From: Bacteroidales bacterium
GTDB taxonomy: Bacteria > Bacteroidota > Bacteroidia > Bacteroidales > F082
DNA: 64,000 nucleotides
Reading direction: 5' to 3'
Assembly: GCA_017561025.1 (NCBI GenBank)
Contig: JAFZDU010000074.1
Span: forward strand, 7,603-71,602
Below are positions 6,931-48,044 of this stretch, piece after piece; position 1 is the first letter of the stretch; the number at the start of each line of letters is the position of its first letter. The position numbers and the translations under genes were made by a program. The notes below the pieces were generated by a model. It saw nothing but the letters and a program-made list of their open reading frames with translations. It was not told where the DNA came from and searched no databases.

Positions 6931-6989
6931 GATTTTTTTGATTAGTTTAATGATTTAATAATGTTAATAATTCTAAAATTTCGAAGTCG

Positions 6990-6997
6990 CAAAGATA
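6990..6997 (-). promoter_or_regulatory. -7 box TATCTTTG (minus strand) for 5758-6930
   Basis: Plus strand reads CAAAGATA, 60 nt upstream of ATG 6930. Same geometry as the paralog. Confidence 0.5.
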
Positions 6998-7030
6998 ATA
7001 TTTTTATTGATAAAAATGAGGACGATAAAT

Positions 7031-7070
7031 AAAAAAAATAAGAGGCATGAAATGAAATATCACGCCTCTC
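7031..7070 (-). terminator. Intrinsic terminator after 7098-8273
   Basis: Minus strand AGAGGCGTGA...TCATGCCTCT (10 bp, one G-U) followed by U-rich TATTTTTTTT. Confidence 0.65.
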
Positions 7071-7097
7071 ATTTTATGAGTTTTATTCTTTATTCAA

Positions 7098-12753: not shown

Positions 12754-12789
12754 AGAACCTCGGAATCTTTTTCTGGGGTTCTTTTTTTT
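12754..12789 (+). terminator. Intrinsic terminator after hydC
   Basis: AGAACC..GGTTCT imperfect stem followed by T8. Confidence 0.5.
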
Positions 12790-12881: not shown

Positions 12882-12934
12882 GAATTCAAAAAAATCCTAA
12901 CGCCATCACCACATTACTTCATCACTAAAAAAAA

Positions 12935-12966
12935 CTTGTTGTCTTGAGTCTTGTAGACTTGTTGTC
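12935..12966. repeat. Octamer word run CTTGTTGT CTTGAGT CTTGTAGA CTTGTTGT
   Basis: Ends 9 nt before the -7 box of 12987. It is the reverse complement of the GACAACAA/GACTACAA family. Confidence 0.8.
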
Positions 12967-12986: not shown

Positions 12987-14750
12987 ATGAAAAAATATCT
13001 AGTTATGAGAAAGATTGCATTAGTTACCATGTTGCTGTCAGCCTTAGTGTCTGGCGGTTTGAAAGCTCAGAGTTTCGTATCGACAGAGACACAGAAAAGA
13101 AATGTCCTTCTTGAAGAATATACCGGCAAAAACTGCAGCTGGTGCCCTGAAGGTCAGATGACAGCCAACGCTCTTGTTAGAAACAACCCAGGAAGAGTGT
13201 TCCTCGTTAACATCCATGGCGGTCCTTTTTCTCCAACAACAGATCCTAACCTCAACACCGACGACGGCACCAAAATGGTCGAGGATTACGGCATTACAGC
13301 TTATCCTGCAGGCTTCGTCAACAGAACTTCATTCTATGAAATAGCCCGCGAACAGTGGTCGGCTTATACCATGCGCCAGCTTCAACAAACAGCCGAATGT
13401 AATATTGATGGTCAGGTGATAATAGATCCAGCATCACGCATGGCGACAATAACAGTAGAGATATATTACACTGCAGATAGCAAAGAGTCGTTCAACTACC
13501 TCACAATCGCTATGTTACAAGATAACATCATGGGCGACCAGGCAGGTGGCAGCGCCAACCCAGAACAATATGTCAACGGAGAATATCGTCATATGCATAT
13601 CATGCGCGACATCATAACTCCTACATGGGGCGAGACAATCAGTCCGACAACAGCAGGAACTCTTATCACTAAGACATATTCTTACCCAATACCTCAAGTC
13701 ATAGGCGACCCTTACGGAGTGGAGGCGGTGTTGGAAGATCTCTCATTCGTGGCATTCGTTTCTGAAAGCGACGACGGAATCCAGACATGTCCTGTGCTTA
13801 ACGTCAATGAGTTGATAACAGTAATTGACAATGATGAGAATATTGCTCCTGTAATAAGCAAGGCATATCAAAAGTCAACAATATCATGTTCTGAACAAAA
13901 TGTATTATGCACAAATATCGTCAACGCTGGCAAAGAAGAAATTACCTCCTTATTGATAAAGGTGTCGACGGCAAATAATGAAGATGAATTCTTGTGGGAA
14001 GGCAATCTTCAATCTTATCATGAAATTTTGATTGAAAGCGATATCGACCTTTCAGCAGGTGATGAGGTTACAGTGGAAATTCTCGAGGTGAATGGCGAAG
14101 AATATCATTACGTAAAAACAGCGAAGATGATAATTGGAGAATGGCAGGATATTGAACTTAATGCTGAAGAAGAAACTTTCACTATTGAAGTGGTACAAGA
14201 TAAATACGGAAATCAGATTGAATGGTTCGCCTTGACAGCGGACTATGAAGTATTGGCATCAGGTGGTCCTTATCAGATGCTTTCACAACCTGGAACAGAG
14301 ATGCATCAGGTTGAGTTGACAGTGAAGGGCGGCGACTGCTTCAAGTTCGTCATCACCGATGCTGGCGGAAACGGTATCAGCGGTAACAACGGCGAAGGAT
14401 ATTACAGAATACTCAATTCCAACGGTGATGTCATCGTTGATGGCAGCGGCGACTTTGGTGCAGAAGCATCTCATCTTTTGTCTATAAACTTTAATGGAAC
14501 AAGTATAAATGAAACTGTAGATAATAATGTCAAGATTTATCCTAACCCTACACGTAATGAAGTCATGGTACAATGTGACGGAATGAAGAAGATAAGTCTT
14601 GCAACAGTCAGCGGACAGACTCTCGATGAAATGAATGTCGATGCCGACAAATATACACTCGACATGAGAAGTTACAATCCTGGAGTATATTTCATAAATG
14701 TAACTACAGAAAATAGAAATTTCGTAATTAAAGTCCTCAGAACTAACTAA
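12987..14750 (+). CDS. T9SS-sorted Omp28-like CxxC protein (modules A-B-C-CTD)
   Basis: Signal peptide. LLEEYTGKNCSWCPEG motif and the conserved Y.HMH..R...T..WG..I.PTTAG block. VQDKYGNQIEW module. IYPNPTRNEVMV...GVYFINV C-terminal domain. The -7 box at 12975-12982 suggests the true start is ATG 13005 (MRKIALV). Confidence 0.75.
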   Translation: MKKYLVMRKIALVTMLLSALVSGGLKAQSFVSTETQKRNVLLEEYTGKNCSWCPEGQMTANALVRNNPGRVFLVNIHGGPFSPTTDPNLNTDDGTKMVEDYGITAYPAGFVNRTSFYEIAREQWSAYTMRQLQQTAECNIDGQVIIDPASRMATITVEIYYTADSKESFNYLTIAMLQDNIMGDQAGGSANPEQYVNGEYRHMHIMRDIITPTWGETISPTTAGTLITKTYSYPIPQVIGDPYGVEAVLEDLSFVAFVSESDDGIQTCPVLNVNELITVIDNDENIAPVISKAYQKSTISCSEQNVLCTNIVNAGKEEITSLLIKVSTANNEDEFLWEGNLQSYHEILIESDIDLSAGDEVTVEILEVNGEEYHYVKTAKMIIGEWQDIELNAEEETFTIEVVQDKYGNQIEWFALTADYEVLASGGPYQMLSQPGTEMHQVELTVKGGDCFKFVITDAGGNGISGNNGEGYYRILNSNGDVIVDGSGDFGAEASHLLSINFNGTSINETVDNNVKIYPNPTRNEVMVQCDGMKKISLATVSGQTLDEMNVDADKYTLDMRSYNPGVYFINVTTENRNFVIKVLRTN

Positions 14751-14768
14751 TAAGAACTATTATAAAAC

Positions 14769-16883
14769 ATGAGAAAAAAATCTATCATTTTAGCATTGAT
14801 ATCGATGCTGTTTTTAACTAATAATCTTGTCGCTCAGGATTATGTCTCAACACAACCACAGAAGAGAAAAGCGTTGTTGGAAGAATTTACAGGAAGAAAC
14901 TGCCAGAACTGTCCTATGGGACACATGGTGGCAAACAATTTGGTGATTAACAATCCTGGTAATTTGTATGCAGTCAATGTTCACCTCGGACATTATTCTC
15001 CAACGAGTTACCCTAACTTTAATACGGATATGGGTGATGCTATCTATGGCGCTTTCGATATCACTGCTTATCCTCATGCTATTATAAATCGTACAACATC
15101 TTATAGTTTAAGTCGCGACCAATGGTATATCTATGTTAACGAACAATTGGCGCAGAATGCAGAATGTAACATCGATGGCGAGGTTATGATAGACCCTTCA
15201 ACACGTATGGCAAGCATCAACGTTGAGGTTTATTATACCGCTAACAGCAGTTCCAGCACCAACTATCTCAACATCTATATGTTGCAAGACAGTATCTGGG
15301 GCTCACAGGCTGGAGGTTCCGACAACCCTATGCAATATGAAAACGGATATTATTGCCACATGCATGTGCTTCGCGCTGCCTTGACACCAACATGGGGTGA
15401 TGCCATAAGTCCAACAACAGCGGGAACATTGATAAAGAAGACATATCAATATCAGATTCCACAGACGATAGGTTCTCCTAATGGCGTCGACGTAGACATC
15501 AACAACCTTACTTTCTTGGCATTCGTTACAGAGAAATACGACGGAACTCCAACACGACCAATCCTCAATGTCAAGGATTTGCATACATACCAAGGAACAT
15601 TGCTAAGTGTCTATCCTACTATAACTTCAATAGCACCATCAACAAAATTCCACTGTTCTAATGAAAAAGTCATCTCTGTGTCGGTGTATAATGCTGGCAT
15701 CAATAGCATCACATCAATGGAGATTGAAACTAGAGTCAACAATGGTTCTGTTGTTAAACACACTTGGGAAGGCGTGATACCATCACACGAGACCAAGGAA
15801 GTGGAAATTGAAGTTGAAGTGCCTGCTGGAAGCAGCAATGTAAGAGTCGAGATAGTTAAAGCCAACGACCAAGAGTTTGAGGAAGTTGCTAACACGACTG
15901 TACAGAATGATGGATGGGAAGAGATGGAAATTAACTCTGTTGAGGAGGAAGTCACAATTGAGATTATGCAGGACAAATACGGCAACCAGACCACATGGAA
16001 GCTCTTTGCATCCAATGGAAGTGTCATAACATCAGGCGGTCCTTATTCTATGTTGTCGGGAGCATCAGCAACGCAGTTGCATGAAATAAAGGTGAATATC
16101 TCTGCCGGCGAATGTATCAAGTTCGTCATTGAAGACGTGAACGGCAACGGCATCTGCTGTAACTATGGTGAAGGCTATTACAGAATCATCAATGCTAATG
16201 GCAATGTCGTTCTGGATGGAGACGGTGCTTTCGGAAGCAAGGCTGAGCATATCTTGTCTGTTGTTTATGATGAGATAGAGACAGAAAGTTTAGAGGCTCA
16301 GATTTGTGAAGGTGAGAGCTACACCGAATATGGATTTGAGTTTATTGAGCCAGCAGCTGGAACATATCACGAAACCAATCTTTACAACGGCATGCTTTAC
16401 ATCTTGGATCTCACTGTAGTTGCGAATCCGGTAGTCGTCATTGATGGAGCGACGACAATTGAGATAGGAGAGAGCGTTACCTTGACAGCAAGCGGTGCTG
16501 ATGCATACGTATGGTCTACGGGAGATAGCAGCGTTTCTATAACAGTAACGCCTGAAGAAACAACTACATATACTGTAGTGGGAACAAAAGACGGCTGCGA
16601 AGGAAGCGCCGAAATCACAGTAGAAGTGACAGTTGGTATAGGTGAAAATGAAACAATAGAAGCCAATATCTATCCTAATCCTACAAAAGACGAACTTATG
16701 ATAGAATGTCAAGGAATGAAAGAAATCACAGTCGTAATGCCAAACGGACAAGTCGTTGAGAAAATAAATGTAAGCGATGATAAATATGGGTTGGATATGA
16801 GCGATTACAGGTCAGGAATTTACTATGTGAAGATAATGACAAACGACAATAATGTTAGAGTCTATAAATCGGTAAGGATGTAA
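14769..16883 (+). CDS. T9SS-sorted Omp28-like CxxC protein (modules A-B-C-D-E-CTD)
   Basis: LLEEFTGRNCQNCPMGH, IMQDKYGNQTTW...GNGICCNYGEGYYRI, one ICEGESYTEYGF module, an SGADAYVWSTGDSS Ig-like module and IYPNPTKDELMIEC...GIYYVKI. Lies 18 nt after the previous ORF, so it is probably co-transcribed. Confidence 0.75.
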   Translation: MRKKSIILALISMLFLTNNLVAQDYVSTQPQKRKALLEEFTGRNCQNCPMGHMVANNLVINNPGNLYAVNVHLGHYSPTSYPNFNTDMGDAIYGAFDITAYPHAIINRTTSYSLSRDQWYIYVNEQLAQNAECNIDGEVMIDPSTRMASINVEVYYTANSSSSTNYLNIYMLQDSIWGSQAGGSDNPMQYENGYYCHMHVLRAALTPTWGDAISPTTAGTLIKKTYQYQIPQTIGSPNGVDVDINNLTFLAFVTEKYDGTPTRPILNVKDLHTYQGTLLSVYPTITSIAPSTKFHCSNEKVISVSVYNAGINSITSMEIETRVNNGSVVKHTWEGVIPSHETKEVEIEVEVPAGSSNVRVEIVKANDQEFEEVANTTVQNDGWEEMEINSVEEEVTIEIMQDKYGNQTTWKLFASNGSVITSGGPYSMLSGASATQLHEIKVNISAGECIKFVIEDVNGNGICCNYGEGYYRIINANGNVVLDGDGAFGSKAEHILSVVYDEIETESLEAQICEGESYTEYGFEFIEPAAGTYHETNLYNGMLYILDLTVVANPVVVIDGATTIEIGESVTLTASGADAYVWSTGDSSVSITVTPEETTTYTVVGTKDGCEGSAEITVEVTVGIGENETIEANIYPNPTKDELMIECQGMKEITVVMPNGQVVEKINVSDDKYGLDMSDYRSGIYYVKIMTNDNNVRVYKSVRM

Positions 16884-16916
16884 TTATAACATAGTTTGTA
16901 AACTACATTAAAATAA

Positions 16917-16948
16917 GGGAATACCATTGATTTGGTGTTCCTTTTTTT
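16917..16948 (+). terminator. Intrinsic terminator after 14769-16883
   Basis: GGAATACC/GGTGTTCC stem (one U-G) followed by T7. Confidence 0.65.
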
Positions 16949-17145
16949 ATTTAACAATTTTTTATCAACACATATTTATATTGTGGATTTTTTTGTATTT
17001 TAGCGCACTTTTTGGTTCTTATTAATAATGATTAATAACATGTTTTTTTGTGGTTGGAAGATTGTTGGGATATATTAGAATTTAATTGAGAAAACTATTA
17101 ACATAGTTCTATATAACACTTATTATTAACTAAATTTTAAATTTT

Positions 17146-20100
17146 ATGAAAAAGTTTTTAACTTTTTTGATGCTGATGGTGCTATTAGTGCCAAATGCAT
17201 TGCGAGCTGATGAGCTCATCATAGGAGAAGGTACTAACTCTACCAACAATGCTCCTTTTGCAAATTTTTACAGTAATTCATGGGTCGAGGCTATCTACCC
17301 AGCAAGTGAAATTGGTGAGTCAGGTCTTATCACATCAATTTCTTACTACAATGTCAGCCAAGGTTCTACTCTCAGCACTTATGACTTGAGAATTTACATG
17401 GCTGAGACAACTAAAAACACTATGTCAAGCACAAGCGACTGGACACCAATGGCTGATTTGGAATTAGTCTATGAGCATAACGATGTTGTGCTCGGTGGTG
17501 ATGCAGGATGGCAAAAATTCGAGTTGGACACACCTTATTTATATGAAGGTAAAGACAATCTCGTAGTTGTTGTTGCTAAGAAAACCTATGGCTATAGCGG
17601 AATGGCATGGCAATACACACCAACACCTAACACATGTTTGGTTCGTCGTAGCGACTTCTCTCCAGACAATTATGCAAACCACCCAGGAACAAATACAGAT
17701 TACACATGGGTGACAGACTTCAGATCTAACATTAAATTGGACTTCACTCCAAAAGCAGTTGATTGCTACAAAGTTTTATCATTAAACGTTGTAGAAACAG
17801 GAAAGAATACCATTACTATAGAATGGGAACCATATCCAGGACAATCAGAATGGGATGTTTTCGTTTCAATGACAGAAACACCTAACGAATTCACACAACC
17901 TACAGCAACAGTTTCAGAAACATCATACACTTTCACAGGCTTGAAAGGTTTCTCAAATTATAATGTTTACGTAAGAGGTAACTGCGGTTCATCAACAGGT
18001 AAATGGAAAGCTGCTAAGGCAAGTACAGACCCTGACTGGAACGGTGCAGGTACAGAAGAAGATCCATTCCTCATCTATTCAAGAAACGATTTATACATGC
18101 TTACAGTAAGTATGCAAAATGGTTTCAATACAGAAGGAAAATACTTCCTCCAAATGGCTGACATCGAAGGCATCGACTTCGCTATCGGTTCAGGTGCTAA
18201 ATTCCCATTTAGAGGCGTTTATGATGGTAACGGTTACTCAGTTGACCTTAACATCTATGGCAGCCACAACCAAGGTTTCTTCGAAACAGTTGGCGCTGGT
18301 ACAATCATCAGAAATCTTACAACAACAGGTAAGGTTGAATCACAATACTGGCAAACAGGCGGTGTCGTTGCTTACGTTGACTTATCAGCTGGCGTAGCAG
18401 AAGGCGGCCGTCACGTTGTTATTGAAAATTGCGTTAACAGAGCTAACCTCAAAAGTAATGACAACAATGTCGGTGGTATGCTCTCTGACTTCAACAGTAA
18501 TGGTACAGACTACCTTTACGTAAGAAATTGTGTCAACTACGGTACTATTACAGCTATTTCATCATCAAGTTATGCAGGTGGTATCGGCGGTAGAATGCAA
18601 AAAGACGCTGTTATCGAAAACTGTGTTAACTATGGTACTATCAATGGTCCATCATATATGGGCGGTATCATCGCTTATCCTAGAACAAACGTCAATATCA
18701 TCGACTGCTGCAACTACGGTGAAGTAAAAGGTACAGGCGAACGTATCGGCGGTATCTCTGGTTACAGCAGCGGCGGTAGCATCCATAACTGCTATAACGC
18801 AGGTACTGTAACAGGTAATAACTACATGGGTGGTATCATCGGTAGACTTAAGGCATCCTCAGAAAACCTTGGCGTTGTTTGCAATGTTTATAACGCAGGT
18901 GCTGTTGTAAGCTCTTCAAACAATACAGAAACAACAGGTGCTCTCGTAGGTTACAACGAAGGTGACTACTCAGTCGTTACAAATGCTTATTATTTAGAAG
19001 GTGTTTATGGCAATGCTTACGGTTCAACATGCAACGAAGCATTGATCAGCAATGTTTCTTCATTTACACAAGATGCAGAATTAGCATACAGATATCACTT
19101 GACAACAGCTGTTGAAGGAACAACAAACTTAGTAGCAGCATTGAACGCTTACGAAGGTTTAGGCAGCAACGAATGGTATGAAGATATCTATGGTAACTGC
19201 AAATATTTACCAACATTCAACATTGGCAACCCTCCAGGATTGGAATTCAATCCATCACCATTGGCAATGGGTCCACGTGCTATCGGCGCACAATTACACT
19301 CAGAAGTTGTTAAAGTAACTAACACAGGTTCTTTACCAATGGAAGTCACATTGTTAGAACTTGAAAGCGAAAGCTTCATTACATTTGACAATACAAAAGA
19401 AAACCCACAAGTTCCATTCATCCTTGAAGCAGGTAAGAGCGTTGATGTTTATATCACAACAAAATCTGACCCTTCAATTACTGCAAAAGAATACACAACA
19501 AGTATCGTTGCAATGTGGAACAACCAACGTACAGCATCAATCGGTACTATCACAGCTACAGCATACGTTCCAGCAGAAGGCGATGTAGTTGAAACAGCTA
19601 TCGCTGCAACAATGCCAATGAACGCTGCTGTTGACGGAACATCATTCGCTAACAACTACGAATTGCCAGGTTCAACACCAGACGCTTCTGACGTTGTTTA
19701 CGAAATCAATATTGACAAAGACGTATTGTTCAGCGCAGAAGTTGACGGCAACAATGCTAAAATCGCTCTCTATGCTGAAAACATGAACGGCGAATTATAT
19801 CCAAACACAGGAAACAACTATGTTGGTCCAGCAATCGCTCCAGTAGCAGACCTCGCATTCTTCTACTTCGGACAAGACGAATTCATTACACATTACGGTC
19901 AAGGTGCTAACGGTGCTAACGTATCAGCTATCTGCGGCAACTGTGTAAACTACGGTGCTAACTTAGTTCACCCTAGCAGAAGCATCGTCGATGACTTCTC
20001 ATCAGCAAAAGACATCGTCATCAACGAAATGGAATTCTTTGCATACCAAACAGGTTCAACAACAGAATCAACATTCACAGGCTTATACGTAAAGATCTAT

Positions 20101-23100
20101 GATGCTAGCCCACTCGAAGGCGGTAAAGTCGTTTGGGGTGATTTCGAAAACAATATCCTCACTTACTCAGAATGGACAGGTGTTTACAGAACAATGGCAA
20201 ATGATTTGGATGATGAAGAACGTCCTATCATGAGACTCGTCGCTTCTGACCTCGATATCAACCTCCCAGCAGGTACATACTGGGTTGAAGTAACTTCATC
20301 AGGTACATTAGGCAGCGGCCCATGGGGCGTTCCAAGAAGTATTTGGGGACAAAGCGCATCAGGCAACGCTCTCTTGAAAGAAGGTGACACATACGTTCCT
20401 TACTTAGACTCAGGTTACCAATTAGGCATGACAATGGTACTCAGAGAAGGTTACTCATACAGAGGCCGTCAAATGAATATCAATAGAAATGCAACAAGCG
20501 CAGCATCAGCAGCTTCAACAGAATTACAAGAATCAATGACAGAAGCTCAAATAGCACAAGCTGCTGCTACACGTGGTGAACAAAACATCAACAACATCAC
20601 ATTGGTTCCTGGTAAATATTACTTGGTTGCATCTTCAACAAGCGAAAACTACAACGTAATCGCTTCAACAGCAACAATCCCAACTCCAGCTCAACCAACA
20701 TTGGTTTACCCAGCTTACCAAGCTAAAAATATTGAAGCTCCTGTAACATTACGCTGGAACTTACCAGAATATGCAACAGAATACCAATTATTATTAGGTA
20801 CAACATTCCCTCCAACAGAAGTCGTTGTAGACTGGACAAGAGACTTGGCTAACGGTTACCAAGTAATCGACTTATACAGCCACAGCAACTACTTCTGGCA
20901 AGTTAATGTACGTAACTCTTCAGGTACAGTAGAAGGTCCAACATGGGCATTCACAACATCACTCCAAGTACCTCAAAGATTAAGCATCGAATCATCAAAA
21001 CTCTATCCAGGTAATGATGCTGTATTGTCATGGAAAGACGTTAACACACGTCAACACCGTGGTTATAACATTTACCAAGATGGCGTTAAGATCAACAAGA
21101 CTCCTGTTATCGCAACATCATATTCAATCTCAGACCTTGAATATAACATGGAAGGCTATGCATTCAATGTTACAGCTCTCTACGATGCAGGCGAATCAGA
21201 ATTATCAAATACAGTCAATGCTCTCATGACAGGCATGGGAACTGTTGAAGGTTACACATACGAAATCGACGGCGTAACACCAATCGCTGGCGTTGAAGTA
21301 GTATTGACAGGTTTGGATGAATACAATAAGACTACTACAGTAAACCTCGTATCAGACGAAAACGGTTTCTATTCAAGTGAAGTACTCGCTGGTACATACA
21401 ATGGCGTTGCTACAAAAGAAGCTTACCAATCAGCACAAATCAGCAATGTAGTCGTTGCTTATGACAACTTGACAACAGGTGCTAACTTCACATTGAGAGA
21501 AGTATTCTTCCCAGTTGAAGCTATCGTAGCAGAAGAAATCGACAACAACAGCGTCAATACATATTGGAGCTGGGACGAAATCACAGTTGTTGAACCATTC
21601 GATCCAATGTGGATCTACTACGACAATGGTGAATACAAATCATCAATCGGTACAGGTCAAGCAGCACCATGCTACTGGGCAGTATCATTCCCTAACACAG
21701 AAGAATACGCTGGTTCAGTTCTTTCAAAAGTTGCTGTATTCGACGCAGCTCCTGACTATGCAGGAACATACACAGCTAATATCTACCTCGGTGGCACAAC
21801 AGCTCCTGAAACATTAGTTGCAACACAAAGCGCACAATTAGTTGGTGTAGGTGACATGGTTGAAATCGTTCTCGACACTCCAGTTCAAATCGACGGTACA
21901 CAACCATTGTGGATCACATTCTACACATCAACAGTTACATATCCAGCAGCAGGTTGCGCATACGTAGGCGAAACTAACAGCGACTGGATCTCATTAGACG
22001 GCGCAACATGGGAACACGTAGCAACAGACTATCAATTGAACTACACATGGATGATCAGAGGCTTCTTGACAGATCCTAACGGCACAACAAGAGCTCTTAG
22101 CCGTGAAAGCTACAAACCTCAATTCGAAGGTGGCGTTTCAACAGGTACATTCGTAGCTGACGCAACAGCAGAAGCTAAATACGTTGGTCTCCCTGTTATC
22201 GAATCTAACAGAAACAACCGCGCTTTGAAATCATACAAATTATATCGTCACAACTACTTCGATGGTGAAATCACAGATGAAAACATCGTTCTCGTTGCTG
22301 AAGGTATCACAGACACAGCATATGTTGACAATGGCTGGGCTACATTAGAAGGCGGTGTATATAGCTGGGGTGTTTCAGCAGTTTACGAAGGTAACAGACA
22401 AGCTGAAAATGAATCACCAATAGTATGGTCTAACACTCTCGCTAAAGACATGTACACAAGCGTTGAAGTTAGCGTTGCTACAAACACAGAAGATTCAGCA
22501 GAAGGTACATTAGTTACATTTGTAAATATTTCAGAACCTGAAATGGGTTATGATTATGAAGTTGCATTAGATGCTACAGCATACTATGAATGGCCAGAAT
22601 TCCGTAAAGGTACTTACTCATTGACAATCATGAAAGCTGGTTTCAACTCATGTGCAAGAGGTGAAATCATGGAAATCTGGGACAACACTTCAGTTGACTG
22701 CTTACTCGAAGAAATCGCAGCAGCTGTTAACGGTCTCTACGTATCTCCAACAGGTTGGGCAATGTGGAAGAATGAACCAGCAGTTTACGGCGACGAAGCT
22801 ATGTATGACTTCGAAGGCGGTTTCCAAGGATGGACAACACTTGACGCTGATGGTGACGACCACAACTGGTATCATATCATCAACACACACTCACACAACG
22901 CTGACCCAATGCCATCACACTCAGGCGAAGGTCACGTAACATCAGAGTCATTCTGCTTCAACGAAGGCGCTCTTACACCAGATAACTACCTTGTATCTCC
23001 ACAAAAATTCGCTATCGGTTCAATGTCAGTATTGAAGTTCTGGGCAGCTGTCCAAGATTCAAACTTCCCAACAGAACACTTCGGTATCGCTGTTTCAACA

Positions 23101-26013: not shown

Positions 26014-26025
26014 TAACTAACTCAT

Positions 26026-26063
26026 AGAGACGTCACTGTAAAAAGGTGGCGTCTCTATTTTTT
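26026..26063 (+). terminator. Intrinsic terminator after the giant adhesin gene (GAGACGU-stem family)
   Basis: AGAGACGTCAC-9 nt-GTGGCGTCTCT (one U-G) followed by ATTTTTT. Confidence 0.75.
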
Positions 26064-26075
26064 AAATTATCAAAT

Positions 26076-27824
26076 ATGAAAAAGTATTTATTATCTCTTA
26101 TTATCGTACTATTCTCATTAGAACTGCTCAACGCTCAACAATATGTTGTAACAACTCCAACAAATAAGAATGTTCTTCTTGAAGAATATACCGGCAATTA
26201 TTGCACATACTGTCCAAACGGACACCGCATCGCCAATGAATTGGCAGCAAAATATCCTGGTAGAGTGTTCCCTATAAATATCCACGCGGGAAGTTTCGCT
26301 TCTACTAGCTATCCAAACATGACAACAACACAAGGTAACGAATATAATAATAACTTCGGTGTTACATCTTATCCAACAGGTATCCTCAACCGTATGGGTC
26401 AAGTTAGTTATACCCAATGGGAAAATAAGGTGGATGAAATGATGAAGGAAAATGCTATCGTCAACATCGCTGGCGACTATACAATCAACGCTGCAACACG
26501 TACTGTGCAGATCACTGTTGAGATGTATTACACTGGCAATAGCTCTGAATCAACAAACTACCTTACTATCTATATGTTACAAGATGACATCGTAGGTTAT
26601 CAGGCAGGTTCAAATTTAAACCCAACACAAATCGTCGACGGTCAATATAACCACACTCACGTGTTCCGTTCTGCTATCACATCAACATGGGGCGACGCTG
26701 TAAGTCCAACAACAGCAGGTTCTTTGATTACAAAGACTTACACTTACACAATCCCTCAGTCAATAGGCAGTCCTAACGGTGTTGACGTTGACATCAATAA
26801 GGTTTATTTCGTTGCTTTCCTTACAGAAAAAAATGAAGGTAACGTGACACGCCCAGTGCTCAACTCATGCAAACTCGGTGAACCTTCACCTAATATGTAT
26901 GTCGTTGACTTGTGCTACGGCGAAAGCTACACAGAACATGGTTTCAACTATAACAAACCAGCAGCAGGTTATTATGAAGAAATAAAGGAAAACAATGATG
27001 GCAGCTATTCATATTTATATCTCACTGTCTATCCTTCTTACACACGTAACCTCGAAATGGAAATCTGCGAAGGCGAGTCATTCCACTATGGCGCATTCCA
27101 CTTCGACAATCCAGAAGCTGGCGTACATACTCAAGAAAACGTCCTTCAAACTGTTGACGGCTGCGATAGTACAATCGTCATGACATTGACAGTTTATCCT
27201 TCTTATAACATCGAAATCACCGACGAAATCTGCGAAGGCGAAGATTATAAGAAACATGGTTTCAACCTCACAAACCTTTCAGCAGGTATTCATAACAAAA
27301 CACGTGAACTTGAAACAAATTTCGACTGCGATAGTATCGTCAATTTAGTATTGACAGTACATGAGGCACCTGAAGTTACTATTTCAGGCAATACAAACAT
27401 CTATTCAGGTGAAGGCGCAACATTGACAGCAAGCGGCGCTGACTCATATCTCTGGTCAACAGGCGAGACAACAGCTTCTATCACAGTTTATCCTTCTGCA
27501 ACAGCAACATATTCTGTAGTAGGAACAACTAACGGCTGCGACGATGAAGCAGAAGTTACTGTCAACGTAACTGTTGGAGTAGGTGAGAACGAATTGGAAA
27601 ACACTAAGGTTTATCCTAACCCAACAAATGGCGAATTGAAGATCGAATGCCTTGGAATGAGAGAGATTTCAGTCTTCATGCCAAACGGTCAATGTGTTGA
27701 AAATATCTATGTCAACGACGATGCATATACTTTAAACATGAGCGAATATAAGTCTGGCGTTTATTATGTTAAAATAACAACAAAAGACAATGCTGTTAAA
27801 GTATGCAAATCAGTGAAAATGTAA
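26076..27824 (+). CDS. T9SS-sorted Omp28-like CxxC protein (modules A-D-D-D-E-CTD)
   Basis: The ORF track starts at GTG 26046, inside the upstream terminator, so I use ATG 26076 (MKKYLLSLIIVLFSL). LLEEYTGNYCTYCPNGH. Three C.GES(Y/F)..(H/Y)G(F/A) modules. SGADSYLWSTGETT module. VYPNPTNGELKIEC...GVYYVKI. Confidence 0.75.
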   Translation: MKKYLLSLIIVLFSLELLNAQQYVVTTPTNKNVLLEEYTGNYCTYCPNGHRIANELAAKYPGRVFPINIHAGSFASTSYPNMTTTQGNEYNNNFGVTSYPTGILNRMGQVSYTQWENKVDEMMKENAIVNIAGDYTINAATRTVQITVEMYYTGNSSESTNYLTIYMLQDDIVGYQAGSNLNPTQIVDGQYNHTHVFRSAITSTWGDAVSPTTAGSLITKTYTYTIPQSIGSPNGVDVDINKVYFVAFLTEKNEGNVTRPVLNSCKLGEPSPNMYVVDLCYGESYTEHGFNYNKPAAGYYEEIKENNDGSYSYLYLTVYPSYTRNLEMEICEGESFHYGAFHFDNPEAGVHTQENVLQTVDGCDSTIVMTLTVYPSYNIEITDEICEGEDYKKHGFNLTNLSAGIHNKTRELETNFDCDSIVNLVLTVHEAPEVTISGNTNIYSGEGATLTASGADSYLWSTGETTASITVYPSATATYSVVGTTNGCDDEAEVTVNVTVGVGENELENTKVYPNPTNGELKIECLGMREISVFMPNGQCVENIYVNDDAYTLNMSEYKSGVYYVKITTKDNAVKVCKSVKM

Positions 27825-27851
27825 TTGATTTTTAACACTCTTATAGGTAAA

Positions 27852-27883
27852 GGGCGCGGTATTGAATCGCGTCCTTTTTTTTT
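27852..27883 (+). terminator. Intrinsic terminator after 26076-27824
   Basis: GGGCGCG/CGCGTCC stem (one G-U) followed by T9. Confidence 0.7.
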
Positions 27884-27928
27884 ATGAAAAATGCCAAAAA
27901 AATGACCTGTAATTATGAAAAATTTTCA

Positions 27929-27936
27929 TAATTTTG
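27929..27936 (+). promoter_or_regulatory. -7 box TAATTTTG for 28031-31780, overlapped by a 23-bp perfect palindrome
   Basis: Exact match. A second candidate TACTTTTG lies at 27960-27967. The palindrome AATTATGAAAA-A-TTTTCATAATT spans 27911-27933. Confidence 0.45.
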
Positions 27937-28030
27937 CAACTTTATTTTTAAAGTGAAAATACTTTTGTATATTATTGATTAGTAATTGAATAATTATAAA
28001 CTTATTTATCAAATTTAATTAAAATTCATT

Positions 28031-31000
28031 ATGAGAAAGTTCTTAACTTGTCTTATGGTTTTGGTGTTATTGGCACCTAACGCATTAAGAGCAGATGAGA
28101 AAAAACGTGATTCTTATCAGCCAGTTTACCAAGTGAAGGCAGATGCTATGAACGACAACACTGTCAAAGCATGCTGGAGCTGGGATGAAATCGTTCCTGA
28201 CAAACTTATGATTAACTTCGAGTCAGGTGAAATATCACAAGGCGATTTCAACAATGAAGTTTCTAACTACCCATGGGTTATCACAGAAAACGCTTACGAA
28301 GGCACTTACGCTATCAAATCTTCTAACGAAGGCAAACCAAACAGCACATCAGCAATCGAAATCACTGTCGACGTTCCTTACGACGGCGTTATGGGTTTCA
28401 ACTGCAGAGTGTCTAGTGAAACAAAATATGACTTCGGTCGTTTCTATATCGACGGCGTCATGATGCTTGAGACATCAGGTCTTAAAATGTGGCAATACAA
28501 AGAATATGAAATCACTGAAGGTACTCACACCTACAGATGGGAATACAAGAAAGATAACGGTACAGACAAACAAGAAGATACTTTCTATCTTGACAACATC
28601 AAACTCTTCGGTGAAGTAGAACCTTTCGAAGGCGGCTGGATCACATACAGCGACACTGCTTACGTTGAGTCGGTAAGCCCTGGTTACAACGCACAAATGT
28701 GGTGGGGCGTTAAATTCCCAAGAACAGAGTCATATAAAGATATGGTCCTCAGCGCTATCTCTGTATTCGACGCACAGCCAGGCGCAGGTAACTATACAGC
28801 TAACATCTTCATGGGTGGCGAAAACGCTCCTGAAGAATTGGTTTCAACACAAACATTCAGCTTGTCAGGTTCAGAACAATTCGTTGACGTAGCTCTTTCA
28901 ACACCAGTTGAAATTGAAGGCGACCAACCATTATGGATTACATTGCATTCAACAGACATCTTCGCTCCAGCAGCAGGTTGCGAATATGCTGACGATATCA
29001 ACAGCGACTGGCTCTCATTGAACGGAACAGATTGGGGTCACATCAAATCAGACTATGGTTTCCACTATTCATGGATGATCAAAGGTTATGTTGAAAATGT
29101 TGAAGGCAAGAGAGCAGAACTCGCTAATAATAACAGAGCAGAATTCAACTCATATAAAGTCTATCGCTACGACTGCTTCGCAGGTGAGATGTCAGAACAA
29201 ACAGTGACATTGCTCGCTGAAAACGTAACAGACACATTGTTCTTAGACAACGATTGGGCAGGCATGGAAGACGGTATCTACCAATGGGGCGTCTCTGCAG
29301 TTTATGACGGCAATAACGAATCTTCAATCACATGGTCAAACATCGTTGACAAAAACATGGTTGCTACAATGAATGTCAACGTTACAACAAACAACAACAA
29401 GACTGCTGAAGGTACTTTGGTAAGATTCATCAACCTCTCAGAACCAGGAATGGAATATGACTATGAAGTTGTTTTGGATGAAACAGGCGCTTGCTCATGG
29501 AAGAAATTCCGTAAAGGTATTTATGAAGTGACAATCTCAAACGATGGTTATTATTCATGCTACGACAGCGAAGTCATAGAAATCTGGGACGCAACAACAT
29601 TAAGCTGCGAACTCGAAGAAATAGTTGCTGCTGTTAACCTTTACGTCTCTCCAACAGGATGGGCAATGTGGAACGAAGAAGAAAACACTTCTAACGCTTT
29701 GAGCTATGACGTTTATTTGAACAACACATTATTAGAACAAGTAACAACAACATATTATCAACACTCAGACCTCACCGTTGGTCAGTCATACACAACAAAG
29801 GTCATCGCTAACTACGCTACTGGTGTCAGCGACCCAATGACATACACATGGACATATAGAGACTGTGACAACTATGAAGGCGTTTCTGACTTCACAGTGA
29901 AATATGCTAACGGCAAGGCAGTTCTTAACTGGACAGTTCCTGGAATCGACGTCTCACAAGAACCACATACATTATCATATGGTTTCGAAAATGACTTAGA
30001 CCAATGGACAAATATCGATGCTGACAACGACGGTCACGTTTGGTATCATAACTCAGAATATGAAGAACACGAAGTAGACCCAGTTGAAGCTCACACAGGC
30101 AACGGCTACATCTGTTCAGAGTCGTTCTGCAACGCTTTCACAGCTCTTACTCCAGACGATTATTTAGTATCTCCAGAAAAAGTCGTTGCTACAGCAACAT
30201 CAAAGATCACTTTCTGGGCATCAGCACAAGACGCTGCTTACGCTGCTGAACACTTCGGCGTCGCTGTTTCATCAGACGGCAACACTTCAGCTGACGACTT
30301 CGTAACCTTAGCAGAATGGACAATGACAGCAAAGAGCGGTGCTAAATCACAACGCGGCACAAGAAACCAAGGCAACTGGTATCAATATGAAGCTGACTTA
30401 AGTTCATACGAAGGTCAAGAAATCTGGGTTGCTATCCGTCACTTCAACACAACAGACATGTTCATCTTGTTAGTTGACGACGTACAACTCGTTGACGTTG
30501 CTCTCATCCCAGAAGTAAAAGAGACAGAAGCTCTCGGCGCTATGGTTTATCGTGATGGTCAACTCCTCAACACAACTCCAATCAGAACAGGCAGATTCTC
30601 AGAAAGCATGGCTGTTGAAACAGAACGCGAATATTGTGTCAGAGTCGTTTACGGCGGCGAAAAAGATGATACATACTACGCAATGTCATGCCCTGACTGT
30701 GAGTCACTCTTCTCACAAATGTTCTGCGACGCTCCAGAAGATCTCTATGGCGTTCAGTCATCTAACGAACAAGGCTTGATGGGCGTTCGCCTCGTATGGC
30801 CTTACTCAGCACCTACAACAAACTGGTTATATTATGACAACGGTCTTAAACTCGACGGCGTCGGCGGACCAGAAACATTCTTGTGGGGTGTCATGTTCCC
30901 AGCACAATCCCTCATCGGTTACGAAGGAACATCATTGACAAAAGTCACTATGTATGCTAACGCTATGTCAGAAGGTTTCATCTATATCTACAGCGGCGGT

Positions 31001-31780
31001 ATCACAACACCTGCATCAATGGTTCACGCTCAACAATATTCAACTGACGGTATAGCAGATGACTTCGAAGAATACGTATTGACAACACCAGTGAAAATCG
31101 ATGCTTCAAAGAACCTCTGGATCGTATTCAGCACAAATACAGGTACTATATTCCCAGCTGGTGTTGCTGCAGACTGTGGCGACCCTAACGCACGCTGGAT
31201 CTCATTGGACGGCTACACATGGGAAGACATGAGCATCTACGGTTTGAACTACTCATGGATGGTTCGTGGTTATGTATCTGACGACGATAAATTAGGTGGC
31301 GAGACACGCGCTTTGCAACACTATAACATCTATCGCGGTTCTTCAGAAAACGACTTCGAATTGATCGATAACACAACAGAAACAACTTACTTCGATGTTG
31401 TTAACGAAGGTACATATTACTATCAATTAACAGCAGTATATGAGCAAGAAGGAAAAGAATGCGAATCAGATCCTGCTAATGCTTATGAAAACGAAGAACA
31501 AGACTACATCATCGTTATCGTTAAGAAAGGTGAGTCATTAGATGAAAATGCTTTTGTCACTATGGTTTATCCAAACCCAGCAAAAGACGTCTTGAACATC
31601 AGCGCTGAAGCGATGACACGCGTAAGCATCATCAACACATTAGGTCAGACAGTATACGACCAAGCAGTTGACGCTGACGATGTAGTTCTCGATATGACAC
31701 AATTTAAATCAGGCGTCTATATGTTACGCATCGCAACAGAAAACGGCGTAGCAACACAACGCATCATGGTTAACAATTGA
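28031..31780 (+). CDS. 1249-aa T9SS-sorted adhesin, a shorter mosaic paralog of 17146-26013
   Basis: Near-identical signal peptide (MRKFLTCLMVLVLLAPNALRAD). One cleaved-adhesin domain (WTNIDADNDGHVWYH...PDDYLVSPE...EHFGVAVSS...WYQYEADLS...RHFNTTDMFILLVDDVQL). Two W.YYD..G...WM(I/V)(K/R)GYV modules. VYPNPAKDVLNI...GVYMLRI C-terminal domain. Confidence 0.85.
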   Translation: MRKFLTCLMVLVLLAPNALRADEKKRDSYQPVYQVKADAMNDNTVKACWSWDEIVPDKLMINFESGEISQGDFNNEVSNYPWVITENAYEGTYAIKSSNEGKPNSTSAIEITVDVPYDGVMGFNCRVSSETKYDFGRFYIDGVMMLETSGLKMWQYKEYEITEGTHTYRWEYKKDNGTDKQEDTFYLDNIKLFGEVEPFEGGWITYSDTAYVESVSPGYNAQMWWGVKFPRTESYKDMVLSAISVFDAQPGAGNYTANIFMGGENAPEELVSTQTFSLSGSEQFVDVALSTPVEIEGDQPLWITLHSTDIFAPAAGCEYADDINSDWLSLNGTDWGHIKSDYGFHYSWMIKGYVENVEGKRAELANNNRAEFNSYKVYRYDCFAGEMSEQTVTLLAENVTDTLFLDNDWAGMEDGIYQWGVSAVYDGNNESSITWSNIVDKNMVATMNVNVTTNNNKTAEGTLVRFINLSEPGMEYDYEVVLDETGACSWKKFRKGIYEVTISNDGYYSCYDSEVIEIWDATTLSCELEEIVAAVNLYVSPTGWAMWNEEENTSNALSYDVYLNNTLLEQVTTTYYQHSDLTVGQSYTTKVIANYATGVSDPMTYTWTYRDCDNYEGVSDFTVKYANGKAVLNWTVPGIDVSQEPHTLSYGFENDLDQWTNIDADNDGHVWYHNSEYEEHEVDPVEAHTGNGYICSESFCNAFTALTPDDYLVSPEKVVATATSKITFWASAQDAAYAAEHFGVAVSSDGNTSADDFVTLAEWTMTAKSGAKSQRGTRNQGNWYQYEADLSSYEGQEIWVAIRHFNTTDMFILLVDDVQLVDVALIPEVKETEALGAMVYRDGQLLNTTPIRTGRFSESMAVETEREYCVRVVYGGEKDDTYYAMSCPDCESLFSQMFCDAPEDLYGVQSSNEQGLMGVRLVWPYSAPTTNWLYYDNGLKLDGVGGPETFLWGVMFPAQSLIGYEGTSLTKVTMYANAMSEGFIYIYSGGITTPASMVHAQQYSTDGIADDFEEYVLTTPVKIDASKNLWIVFSTNTGTIFPAGVAADCGDPNARWISLDGYTWEDMSIYGLNYSWMVRGYVSDDDKLGGETRALQHYNIYRGSSENDFELIDNTTETTYFDVVNEGTYYYQLTAVYEQEGKECESDPANAYENEEQDYIIVIVKKGESLDENAFVTMVYPNPAKDVLNISAEAMTRVSIINTLGQTVYDQAVDADDVVLDMTQFKSGVYMLRIATENGVATQRIMVNN

Positions 31781-31799
31781 TAAGAGATTTTTATAAAAA

Positions 31800-31830
31800 C
31801 TCAGAATCTCAAAATCTCAGAATCTCAGAA
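31800..31830. repeat. Octamer word run CTCAGAAT CTCAAAAT CTCAGAAT CTCAGAA
   Basis: The last unit is the 5' arm of the terminator at 31823-31852. Confidence 0.8.
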
Positions 31831-31852
31831 ATGGGGTTCTGAGATTTTTTTT
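31823..31852 (+). terminator. Intrinsic terminator after 28031-31780
   Basis: TCTCAGAA/TTCTGAGA perfect 8-bp stem followed by T8. The 5' arm is the last unit of the word run at 31800-31830. Confidence 0.75.
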
Positions 31853-37712: not shown

Positions 37713-37726
37713 AAATATATAAAAAA

Positions 37727-47972: not shown

Positions 47973-47992
47973 TATTTCCATAAATAAATAAT

Positions 47993-48025
47993 GAGACGTT
48001 GCTTTTAGCAGCGTCTCTTTTTTTT
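47993..48025 (+). terminator. Intrinsic terminator after 46215-47972 (GAGACGU-stem family)
   Basis: GAGACGTTGC-TTTTA-GCAGCGTCTC (one U-G) followed by T8. Confidence 0.8.
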
Positions 48026-48044
48026 CATAATAAATCTAAACCAA

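What the first reader, a model, noticed from the sequence alone, without database searches (positions are those of the whole stretch)
12987..31780. 18.8-kb block of five consecutive T9SS cargo genes between the hydrogenase operon and murB
All five plus-strand ORFs carry signal peptides and type-A T9SS C-terminal domains. Two are HagA/gingipain-type cleaved-adhesin giants. Three are Omp28-like CxxC proteins. With the blocks at 5758-8273 and 46215-51308, nine T9SS substrates occupy about 40% of the window.

The interleaving of thioredoxin-motif surface proteins with hemagglutinin-like adhesins recurs at two loci. This could reflect a functional pairing, for example surface redox handling or attachment of the adhesins, rather than chance. 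That pairing is inference only. Neither protein family here has a demonstrated function.
Basis: partly seen in the sequence, partly recalled or inferred. Interest (0 to 1): 0.68.

Follow-up and report, generated by a model that had tools for sequence, protein, structure and literature searches.

The report
Cluster of T9SS surface-protein genes
An uncultured herbivore-gut Bacteroidales bacterium carries a real but ordinary cluster of five exported surface-protein genes from two known families, and I found no good evidence that the two families work as a pair.

Summary
The observation mostly holds. Five consecutive + strand genes (12987-31780) lie between hydABC and murB, and all carry signal-peptide-like N-termini and type-A T9SS sorting domains. 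A, B and D are Omp28/HBP35-like proteins with an invariant CxxCP motif. C (2955 aa) and E (1249 aa) carry gingipain K-type cleaved-adhesin domains. Nine T9SS cargo genes cover 41% of the window.

Two statements fail. The second locus (46215-51308) holds two Omp28-like genes and no adhesin, so the interleaving does not recur. Both families also have characterised members: HBP35 has thioredoxin activity and binds hemin, and the Kgp/HagA K domains are known adhesin modules.

The pairing hypothesis gets little support:
- Adjacency occurs only at this hyd-murB site, in one subclade where housekeeping synteny is equally conserved.
- It is absent at the widely conserved aminotransferase site (0 of 55 loci).
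- It is absent in 80 diverse metagenome loci.
- It is absent around P. gingivalis hbp35.
- Hairpin and T-run terminators follow B, C, D and E.

A few near relatives fuse the module to cleaved-adhesin, C10 or S8 peptidase domains, which leaves a weak lead. Verdict: new members of known families, low interest.

The parts
12987..14750 (+). Gene A, 587 aa. Signal peptide, then an HBP35/Omp28-like thioredoxin-type module (CSWC at residues 50-53), an unassigned middle domain and a type-A T9SS sorting domain.
   Evidence: Pfam Omp28 77.2 bits and Por_Secre_tail 36.8 bits. TIGR04183. CxxC.
14769..16883 (+). Gene B, 704 aa. Same module (CQNC 45-48), with an A-type middle domain, then a D-type repeat/Ig-like region and the sorting domain. 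It starts 18 bp after A with no hairpin between them, so the two are probably co-transcribed.
17146..26013 (+). Gene C, 2955 aa giant. In order: signal peptide, N-terminal beta-sandwich, fn3 (212-288), GLUG-type beta-helix (~300-660), beta-sandwich domains, CarboxypepD_reg (1378-1450), repeated domains, two cleaved-adhesin domains (1888-2059 and 2162-2335) and the sorting domain (2885-2952). No catalytic domain and no HExxH motif were found.
   Evidence: The model has pLDDT above 85 over residues 300-610. Foldseek matches 3n6z at E 7.8e-8. HExxH check.
22807..24150 (+). The two K-type cleaved-adhesin (choice-of-anchor J) domains of C.
   Evidence: PF07675 211.8 bits with two stretches. NF038128 153 bits. 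PDB 4itc and 3m1h at E ~4e-26.
26076..27824 (+). Gene D, 582 aa from ATG 26076 (the ORF list starts it at GTG 26046). Signal peptide, HBP35/Omp28-like module (CTYC), cysteine-containing 'ICEGE..GF' repeats, an Ig-like domain and the sorting domain.
28031..31780 (+). Gene E, 1249 aa. It is a paralogue of the C-terminal ~1450 aa of C (46-54% identity), with one cleaved-adhesin domain (648-819) and the sorting domain.
12754..12782 (+). Terminator-like hairpin with a T-run after hydC, upstream of the block.
   Evidence: 12-pair stem followed by T8.
16915..16944 (+). Terminator-like hairpin with a T-run after B.
26024..26058 (+). Terminator-like hairpin with a T-run after C, filling most of the 62-bp C-D gap.
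   Evidence: 14-pair stem.
27849..27877 (+). Terminator-like hairpin with a T-run after D. Two Bacteroidetes-type TAnnTTTG motifs follow at 27929 and 27960, upstream of E.
31811..31848 (+). Terminator-like hairpin with a T-run after E.
   Evidence: 17-pair stem.
46215..51308 (+). Second Omp28-like locus. F is 585 aa. G is 1087 aa with two tandem modules (CGYC 43-46 and CPNC 542-545). There is no cleaved-adhesin domain. The locus sits after a class-IV aminotransferase gene, which is the widely conserved position for this family in the clade.
5758..8273 (-). Two paralogous T9SS cargo genes (390 and 391 aa, 58% identical) with no recognised domain besides the sorting domain.

Best explanation
The block is a lineage-specific cluster of surface-protein genes in an uncultured herbivore-gut Bacteroidales bacterium (closest genome: a water-buffalo caecum MAG).

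Export. Each product is exported by Sec through a signal-peptidase-I signal. It is then carried across the outer membrane by the type IX secretion system, which recognises the type-A C-terminal domain. By analogy with other type-A cargo, that domain is cut off and the protein is anchored to surface lipopolysaccharide or released.

The Omp28-like proteins. A, B and D, with F and G elsewhere in the window, are T9SS-anchored relatives of P. gingivalis HBP35. They have a thioredoxin-type start (beta strand, CxxCP, helix) followed by the Omp28 beta-sandwich with a conserved YxHxH..R motif, then variable Ig-like or repeat domains. The most likely activity is thiol-disulfide exchange at the cell surface, possibly with ligand or hemin binding by the sandwich.

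The giants. C and E are multi-domain adhesins. A GLUG beta-helix and beta-sandwich stalks carry K-type jelly-roll binding modules. No protease domain was found.

Gene organisation. Apart from A-B, the genes look like separate transcription units. The Omp28-like and adhesin genes are neighbours because this hyd-murB interval accumulated and duplicated T9SS cargo genes in one subclade. The evidence does not show that the two families need each other.

Shown: the domain content, the homologies, the synteny pattern and the hairpins. Inferred: export route, anchoring, redox activity and adhesion.
For: Family assignments: Pfam and NCBIfam hits above cut-off.

Link to HBP35:
- D matches HBP35 (5y1a) and Omp28 (2r2c) by sequence.
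- A family profile matches HBP35 over positions 13-213 at E 6.9e-9, and 2r2c at 3.4e-15.
- The D model matches 5y1a by Foldseek at E 3.6e-9, TM 0.55.
- The window's CxxC aligns with HBP35 C48/C51, which are required for insulin reduction (PMC2907840).

Conservation of the motif:
- CxxC is kept in 101 of 101 complete modules in clade genomes.
- It is kept in 145 of 153 modules of 150 diverse cluster representatives.
- An NCBIfam model for an Omp28-related selenoprotein also hits these proteins weakly.

The giants: K-domain homology; GLUG beta-helix.

Transcription: long hairpin and T-run structures sit exactly in the gaps after hydC, B, C, D and E.

Synteny:
- The same order is seen in orthologous loci at 75% and 63% identity.
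- Adjacency is confined to this site.
- There were 0 of 55 adjacent adhesin genes at the aminotransferase site, none of Pfam grade in 80 diverse metagenome loci, and none near P. gingivalis hbp35.
Against: - The D model is only moderately confident (mean pLDDT 73), and the CxxC loop itself scores below 50.
- No signal-peptide predictor was available, and no T9SS machinery gene lies in the window.
- Total terminator-like and promoter-like counts in the region are no higher than in shuffles (13 vs 13.2; 53 vs 48.7). The hairpin argument therefore rests on their position and stem length, and read-through is possible. The C-D gap of 62 bp leaves no room for a promoter.
- Adjacency is 10 of 10 at the murB site.
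- Near relatives fuse the module to Cleaved_Adhesin domains in one polypeptide (P0251, P0261). Some functional link in this clade therefore cannot be excluded.
Confidence: 0.6

Rival explanations
1. Dedicated redox partnership. The surface thioredoxin-type proteins act on the neighbouring giant adhesins, for example by reducing or isomerising their cysteines during or after attachment. On this reading the interleaved gene order is selected.
For: - The C-D adjacency is conserved in all 10 informative murB-site loci, and in orthologues down to ~56% module identity.
- C and E contain 30 and 17 cysteines.
- Near relatives carry the module and a Cleaved_Adhesin domain in one protein (P0251, P0261).
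- HBP35 complements an E. coli dsbA mutant (PMC2907840).
Against: - The second locus in the window has no adhesin.
- There were 0 of 55 adjacent adhesin genes at the conserved aminotransferase site, none of Pfam grade in 80 diverse loci, and none near hbp35 in P. gingivalis.
- E is missing in three relatives that keep D (L001/L004, L008).
- Hairpins separate the genes.
- P0261 has lost the second cysteine of the motif.
- The cysteine content of C (1.0%) is lower than that of the Omp28-like proteins themselves.
- Housekeeping synteny is equally conserved at this depth.
Confidence: 0.12
2. Heme-capture locus. As in P. gingivalis, K-type adhesin domains would bind haemoproteins, and the HBP35-like proteins would bind and hand on hemin. 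The two families would then share a pathway without interacting directly.
For: - HBP35 binds hemin through residues 135-344, the part that aligns with the Omp28 sandwich, and is needed for growth at low hemin (PMC2907840).
- The K domains of C and E are homologous to Kgp K1-K3. From general knowledge, those domains take part in haemoglobin binding.
Against: - The window has no gingipain-type C25 protease, no hmuY/hus-type gene and no TonB receptor.
- The HBP35 hemin-binding residues are not defined, so their conservation cannot be checked.
- The family is also abundant in marine and other non-host metagenomes.
Confidence: 0.1
3. Protease-handling modules. The Omp28-like module would bind or condition proteases at the surface. 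These could be the cell's own cysteine or serine proteases, or host proteases as reported for Paraprevotella 00502 and trypsin. The adhesin giants would be unrelated neighbours.
For: - Near relatives (module 52-57% identical to D) fuse the module to I69-C10 cysteine peptidase (P0251, P0255, both keeping CxxC) and to S8 subtilase (P0254, P0261).
- A T9SS cargo annotated 'Omp28-related outer membrane protein' recruits trypsin and promotes its autodegradation together with a second cargo (PMC9477747).
Against: - Its published model is a beta-propeller plus Ig-like domains. No propeller is seen in D.
- Fusions are a small minority: 5 of the 25 longest among 150 representatives.
- There is no peptidase gene in the block.
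Confidence: 0.1

Closest known systems
HBP35 of Porphyromonas gingivalis (PDB 5y1a)
   Same: - N-terminal thioredoxin-type CxxCP motif that aligns residue for residue.
- Following beta-sandwich with the Y.H.H motif.
- Signal peptide.
- T9SS C-terminal domain.
- Profile match E 6.9e-9 over ~200 positions, and Foldseek E 3.6e-9.
   Different: - Only ~16% identity in the structural alignment.
- The window's proteins are 580-1090 aa, with extra middle domains (Ig-like, cysteine-containing repeats, or a second module).
- They occur as five paralogues.
- hbp35 itself sits between typA and ahpC-ahpF, not near adhesin genes.
- Activity was not tested here.
Omp28 outer-membrane lipoprotein family (PF11551, NF033782; PDB 2r2c)
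   Same: The Pfam domain is matched well above cut-off. The NCBIfam model aligns over residues ~17-264. NCBI names the orthologues 'Omp28-related outer membrane protein'.
   Different: Single-module proteins score 95-138 bits, below the 150-bit cut-off of the lipoprotein model. There is no lipobox cysteine. Anchoring is through a T9SS domain rather than a lipid.
Haemagglutinin/adhesin K domains of Kgp, RgpA and HagA (PDB 4itc, 3km5, 3m1h)
   Same: C has two and E has one homologous ~175-aa jelly-roll domain (E 1e-15 to 1e-28). Both proteins also carry a T9SS domain.
   Different: - No C25 catalytic domain.
- No HagA-type long repeat unit.
- The rest of C is a GLUG beta-helix plus fn3-type and other beta-sandwich domains, shared with giant surface proteins of Firmicutes.
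- NCBIfam files the domain under the broader 'choice-of-anchor J'.
Paraprevotella clara 00502/00509 trypsin-recruiting T9SS cargo pair (PMC9477747)
   Same: This is a published case in which an 'Omp28-related' T9SS cargo and a second, nearby T9SS cargo act together at the cell surface.
   Different: The relationship rests on the product name only. The 00502 model is described as a beta-propeller plus five Ig-like domains. 00509 is an unannotated hypothetical protein.
GLUG beta-helix of BACOVA_03286 (PDB 3n6z) and M26 IgA1 proteases
   Same: Residues ~300-660 of C are predicted with high confidence as a beta-helix built of NCxNxGxVxGxxxVGGIxG-type repeats. Foldseek matches 3n6z at E 7.8e-8.
   Different: There is no M26 catalytic domain and no HExxH motif anywhere in C. 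The Pfam GLUG hit is below cut-off (16.7 vs 20.5 bits).

Membership tests
T9SS type-A cargo | C-terminal type-A sorting domain (TIGR04183 / PF18962) at the very C-terminus | tested here: met
   All nine proteins score above both curated cut-offs, and the match ends within 8 residues of the stop.
T9SS type-A cargo | N-terminal Sec signal peptide | tested here: met
   K/R-rich start, hydrophobic core, and A-x-A-like site followed by Q or D. Judged by inspection only; no predictor was available.
T9SS type-A cargo | T9SS machinery (PorK/L/M/N, Sov, PorU/V) in the same genome | not testable with these tools
   None of these genes lies in the 64-kb window. The whole genome is not available.
T9SS type-A cargo | Removal of the C-terminal domain and surface attachment | not testable with these tools
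   Needs proteomics.
HBP35/Omp28 superfamily | Omp28 domain (PF11551) above the gathering score | tested here: met
   A 77, B 79, D 100, F 74 and G 141 bits, against a cut-off of 34.9.
HBP35/Omp28 superfamily | CxxC pair aligned with the catalytic C48/C51 of HBP35 | tested here: met
   Alignments. The pair is invariant in the clade. The role of C48/C51 is from PMC2907840.
HBP35/Omp28 superfamily | Thioredoxin-type start plus beta-sandwich architecture | tested here: met
   The model shows strand 33-36, CxxC 43-46, helix 47-59, strand 64-68 and a sandwich at 129-266. Foldseek matches 5y1a at E 3.6e-9, TM 0.55. Confidence around the CxxC loop is low.
HBP35/Omp28 superfamily | Disulfide reductase activity and hemin binding | not testable with these tools
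   Needs biochemical assays.
Omp28 lipoprotein proper (NF033782) | Score above the NCBIfam cut-off, and a lipoprotein signal with a lipobox cysteine | tested here: not met
   A 105, B 111, D 138 and F 95 bits, all below 150. Only the two-module G reaches 171. There is no cysteine at the signal cleavage site.
Gingipain / HagA adhesins | Cleaved_Adhesin (K-type) domain | tested here: met
   PF07675 scores 212 bits for C (two copies) and 114 bits for E. PDB 4itc, 3m1h and 3km5 are matched.
Gingipain / HagA adhesins | C25 cysteine-protease catalytic domain (gingipains) | tested here: not met
   No peptidase family was hit in Pfam, NCBIfam or PDB searches of C and E.
Gingipain / HagA adhesins | Long tandem haemagglutinin repeat units (HagA) | tested here: inconclusive
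   C has two K domains 36-48% identical, and a second domain type repeated three times. It does not have near-identical long units.
Gingipain / HagA adhesins | Proteolytic processing into non-covalent adhesin complexes | not testable with these tools
   Needs protein chemistry.
Paraprevotella 00502-type trypsin recruiter | Sequence homology to 00502, and an N-terminal beta-propeller plus an Ig-like cluster | not tested
   The 00502 sequence was not obtainable with these tools. The D model shows no propeller. The description of 00502 comes from PMC9477747.

The most novel reading that the evidence does not exclude
In this Bacteroidales clade the HBP35-like CxxC module could be a surface redox accessory that works on partner cargo supplied either in cis or by the neighbouring gene. 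The cis partners would be the fusions to C10 cysteine peptidase, S8 subtilase and cleaved-adhesin domains. The module would keep catalytic or structural cysteines reduced, or reduce disulfides in bound substrates. The Omp28/adhesin interleaving would then be the unfused form of the same arrangement.
Probability: 0.12. Interest if true: 0.55.

Novelty: new member of a known kind. Interest (0 to 1): 0.25.

Why it matters
If the ordinary reading is right, the value is in annotation. The block adds well-delimited examples of HBP35-like, T9SS-anchored thioredoxin-type proteins and K-domain giant adhesins in an uncultured herbivore-gut lineage. It also shows that the HBP35/Omp28 module family is very large: 6979 clusters at 50% identity, mostly with a T9SS domain and an intact CxxC.

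That breadth makes the unexplained biochemical role of a surface-exposed CxxC in anaerobes a reasonable target for experiment.

If the clade-specific link to adhesin and peptidase domains were functional, it would point to extracellular thiol chemistry as part of how gut Bacteroidales attach to or process substrates.

Tried and rejected
- An iterated HMM for the cleaved-adhesin domain drifted. It called 13 'fusions' in the metagenome loci. Pfam showed only weak MAM-like hits and no Cleaved_Adhesin, so those counts were discarded. The counts were redone with a one-round model. The three residual hits of that model are also not Pfam-grade.
- A whole-protein self-BLAST of C and E returned nothing useful. 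A windowed search was used instead.
- Sigma-70-type promoter and terminator counts for the region equal the shuffle expectation. Only the position and stem length of the five intergenic hairpins carry weight.
- Four murB-site loci without an adhesin gene (L011, L014, L017, L019) were rejected as evidence of absence. In each, the contig begins 150-300 bp before the Omp28-like gene.
- The link to Paraprevotella 00502 could not be tested. The paper gives only GenBank record names.
- A search with the first 117 residues of HBP35 found only one truncated cluster. That was still enough to read the hbp35 neighbourhood.
- A C..17..CPxC..8..C pattern shared by C and E is present in only 8 of 28 related adhesin ORFs. 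It was dropped.
- Residues 893-1144 of C were modelled with pLDDT below 50, so nothing is claimed for them.
- Whether B-C and D-E arose by duplication of a two-gene unit could not be settled from pairwise identities.


Full report
**What is in the sequence**

The ORF list gives five consecutive + strand ORFs at 12987-14750 (A), 14769-16883 (B), 17146-26013 (C), 26046-27824 (D) and 28031-31780 (E). Upstream lie three genes of an [FeFe]-hydrogenase operon: an Nuo51-type subunit, the Fe-only hydrogenase large subunit, and a thioredoxin-like 2Fe-2S ferredoxin. Downstream on the opposite strand lies murB.

All five proteins end in a type-A T9SS sorting domain above the curated cut-offs of both PF18962 and TIGR04183. 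All five start with a K/R-rich segment, a hydrophobic core and an A-x-A-like site.

A, B and D match PF11551 (Omp28). Each carries one CxxC followed by P near residue 45-56. C has two and E has one Cleaved_Adhesin / choice-of-anchor-J domain. These match the solved K1, K2 and K3 domains of Lys-gingipain at E 1e-15 to 1e-28.

A scan of every ORF of 100 aa or more finds exactly nine sorting-domain proteins in the window. The other four are at 5758-6930 and 7098-8273 on the minus strand, and at 46215-47972 and 48045-51308. The three blocks add up to 26,404 bases, or 41%. The core observation is therefore correct and is not a chance pattern.

**Corrections to the observation**

D almost certainly starts at ATG 26076. 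Forty-three near-identical homologues are all 582 aa. The GTG at 26046 lies inside a 14-bp-stem hairpin with a T-run at 26024-26058.

The claim that the thioredoxin-motif/adhesin interleaving recurs at a second locus is wrong. F (46215) and G (48045) are both Omp28-like. G is a head-to-tail duplication of the ~500-aa module with two CxxC motifs, and neither protein has a cleaved-adhesin domain. The minus-strand pair at 5758-8273 consists of two 58%-identical proteins with no recognised domain besides the sorting signal.

**What the Omp28-like proteins are**

The five proteins share a ~255-aa N-terminal module at 46-54% identity (F and G at 77%). Its invariant residues include EE.TG..C..CP.GH, NIH, P..NR and Y.H.H..R.

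By sequence, D matches two P. gingivalis structures. HBP35 (5y1a) matches over the CxxC half, and Omp28 (2r2c) matches over the second half. A profile built from distant family members matches HBP35 over about 200 positions (E 6.9e-9) and 2r2c (E 3.4e-15).

An AlphaFold model of D (mean pLDDT 73) places the CxxC between a beta strand and the N-terminus of a helix, as in thioredoxins. A beta-sandwich follows, then several Ig-like domains and the sorting domain. Foldseek recovers HBP35 (E 3.6e-9, TM 0.55). Otherwise it returns only chains of Ig-like domains.

The window's cysteines align with HBP35 C48 and C51. Mutating those residues abolishes insulin-disulfide reduction. Hemin binding maps to HBP35 residues 135-344, the sandwich side (PMC2907840). 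HBP35 is also a T9SS cargo (PMC3120885, listed).

The proteins are not the classical Omp28 lipoprotein. They score below the NF033782 cut-off and have no lipobox.

The family is large. A profile search of 1.84 billion representatives finds 6979 clusters at E <= 0.001. Among the best 150, 108 carry the sorting domain, and 145 of 153 modules keep CxxC. In 80 genomes of the window's own clade, the motif is kept in all 101 complete modules.

**What the giants are**

E is a paralogue of the C-terminal half of C. C additionally has:
- an N-terminal beta-sandwich;
- an fn3 domain;
- a confidently modelled beta-helix (residues ~300-660, pLDDT mostly above 85) built from GLUG-type repeats.

The beta-helix matches the B. 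ovatus 'putative IgA1 protease' fragment 3n6z (E 7.8e-8). It is shared with many giant surface proteins of Firmicutes.

No peptidase family and no HExxH motif were found. 'HagA/gingipain-type' is therefore true of the binding domain only. These are multi-domain adhesin-like proteins without a catalytic domain.

**Organism and synteny**

The closest genome is a Bacteroidales MAG from water-buffalo caecum (96% over the D module). Other relatives are MAGs from ruminant, deer, horse and bird guts labelled Bacteroidales, Lentimicrobiaceae or Candidatus Limimorpha.

Orthologous loci at 75% and 63% identity show the same order: Omp28-like, giant adhesin, Omp28-like, (adhesin), murB.

I classified the 80 genome loci by flanking marker genes. 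This gives three Omp28-like sites in the clade: after hydABC (A, B), before murB (D), and after a class-IV aminotransferase (F, G).

| Site | Loci | Adhesin gene adjacent | Note |
|---|---|---|---|
| murB (D) | 14 | 10 of 10 informative | In the other 4 the contig begins at the Omp28-like gene |
| hydABC (A, B) | 3 | 1 adjacent, 2 within the flank | One locus is truncated downstream |
| Aminotransferase (F, G) | 55 | 0 | 2 have an adhesin gene within 10 kb |
| Unplaced (no marker gene) | 8 | 2 adjacent, 3 within the flank | — |

The aminotransferase site is by far the most widely conserved. In the same loci murB, the glycosyltransferase and hydABC keep their order at 66-98% identity. The depth sampled is therefore too shallow for conserved adjacency to indicate selection.

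**Tests outside the clade**

A metagenome scan was seeded with distant family members. It returned 80 loci from marine, sediment, termite and other sources. In 73 of them an Omp28-like gene carries the sorting domain, and many have other small T9SS cargo genes beside them. None has a Pfam-grade cleaved-adhesin neighbour. An over-iterated HMM had suggested fusions; the Pfam check showed this was drift to MAM-like domains.

In P. gingivalis-type contigs, hbp35 lies between typA and ahpC-ahpF-lon. No adhesin gene lies within 10 kb upstream or 5.7 kb downstream.

**What speaks for a link**

Among the 25 longest of the 150 representatives:
- three contain a Cleaved_Adhesin domain in the same polypeptide as the module;
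- three contain an I69-C10 cysteine peptidase;
- two contain an S8 subtilase.

Examples are P0251 (I69, C10, Flg_new_2, module, Cleaved_Adhesin, PKD, sorting domain) and P0261 (S8, module, Cleaved_Adhesin, LRR). Their modules are 52-57% identical to D, so they come from near relatives. The C10 fusions keep CxxC, while P0261 has lost the second cysteine.

A Paraprevotella T9SS cargo annotated 'Omp28-related' works with a second nearby cargo to recruit trypsin (PMC9477747). Its homology to the window's module could not be tested.

These points keep a clade-specific functional link possible. They are also what promiscuous domain shuffling among T9SS cargo would produce.

**Transcription**

A and B are 18 bp apart with no hairpin between them. 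Long hairpins followed by T-runs sit in the gaps after hydC, B, C, D and E. Bacteroidetes-type TAnnTTTG motifs precede A and E. Overall counts of such patterns equal the shuffle expectation. This is therefore suggestive of separate transcription units, not proof.

**Verdict**

The block is a real, densely packed cluster of T9SS cargo genes. They belong to two known families: the HBP35/Omp28-like thioredoxin-type surface proteins and the K-domain adhesin-like giants. The cluster was inherited as a unit within one herbivore-gut Bacteroidales subclade.

The most likely mechanism is Sec export, T9SS translocation and surface anchoring. The CxxC module would carry out thiol-disulfide chemistry, possibly with ligand binding. 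The giants would act as adhesins. The proposed pairing is at best a weak, clade-limited lead.

Novelty: new members of known kinds. Interest is low.

Noticed in passing
window, e.g. 12790-12816, 12934-12962, 31795-31832, 31995-32012, 37680-37756, 44798-44837, 53702-53800, 61028-61131: The window holds 22 short tandem arrays of 7-8-nt units (3.4-7.9 copies), each with a different unit. None appeared in any of 10 shuffles. 17 of the 22 are intergenic although only ~8% of the window is non-coding. Density is 2.2 per 10 kb in loci of the window's clade against 0.38 per 10 kb in diverse metagenome loci, and the arrays are absent from three Limimorpha-like loci checked. From memory, they resemble the cyanobacterial STRR heptamer repeats.
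   Followed up: partly
window 32775-32811 (inside murB, minus strand); L001 12587-12623: One octamer array (AGGAATTG x4.6) lies inside the murB reading frame and encodes FPQFLNSSIPQFL (residues 102-114). A variant array (AGGAACTG x4.6) lies within murB in a relative (D protein 75% identical).
   Followed up: partly
window 48045-51308: G is an internal tandem duplication of the whole ~500-aa Omp28-like unit, and both copies keep CxxC. Orthologues of ~1084-1099 aa occur at the same aminotransferase site in other genomes (L033, L055, L058).
   Followed up: partly
window 44985-46010 with 46215-51308; loci L012-L082: In this clade a class-IV aminotransferase gene is followed by one to three Omp28-like T9SS genes in 55 of 80 species-level genomes. 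This is the ancestral-looking home of the family there.
   Followed up: yes
loci L083-L162 (e.g. L096 8609-9361, L103 9134-9847 and 14188-15084): In diverse (largely marine) metagenome loci the Omp28-like T9SS gene very often has a ~240-265-aa gene beside it. In the two checked with Pfam, the only domain is the sorting signal. A sorting-domain-less Omp28 gene of 300-390 aa often lies 2-4 kb away. This is a different recurrent neighbourhood from the one in the window.
   Followed up: partly
proteins P0251, P0254, P0255, P0260, P0261 (not in the window): Near relatives embed the module in 1700-2800-aa T9SS proteins. The N-terminal partners are an I69-C10 cysteine peptidase, an S8 subtilase or a BNR propeller.
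   Followed up: partly
window 5758-6930 and 7098-8273 (minus strand): Two tandem paralogues (58% identical, ~390 aa) have a type-A sorting domain and no other recognisable domain.
   Followed up: no
L164 3184-6895 (P. gingivalis-type contig): hbp35 lies directly upstream of ahpC and ahpF, which are peroxide-detoxifying thiol enzymes. In this assembly hbp35 is split into three ORFs.
   Followed up: no
window 2381-4003: This is a 540-aa protein with weak fn3-type hits. It contains an acidic, low-complexity stretch encoded by 3-, 12- and 27-nt tandem repeats at 2746-2837.
   Followed up: no
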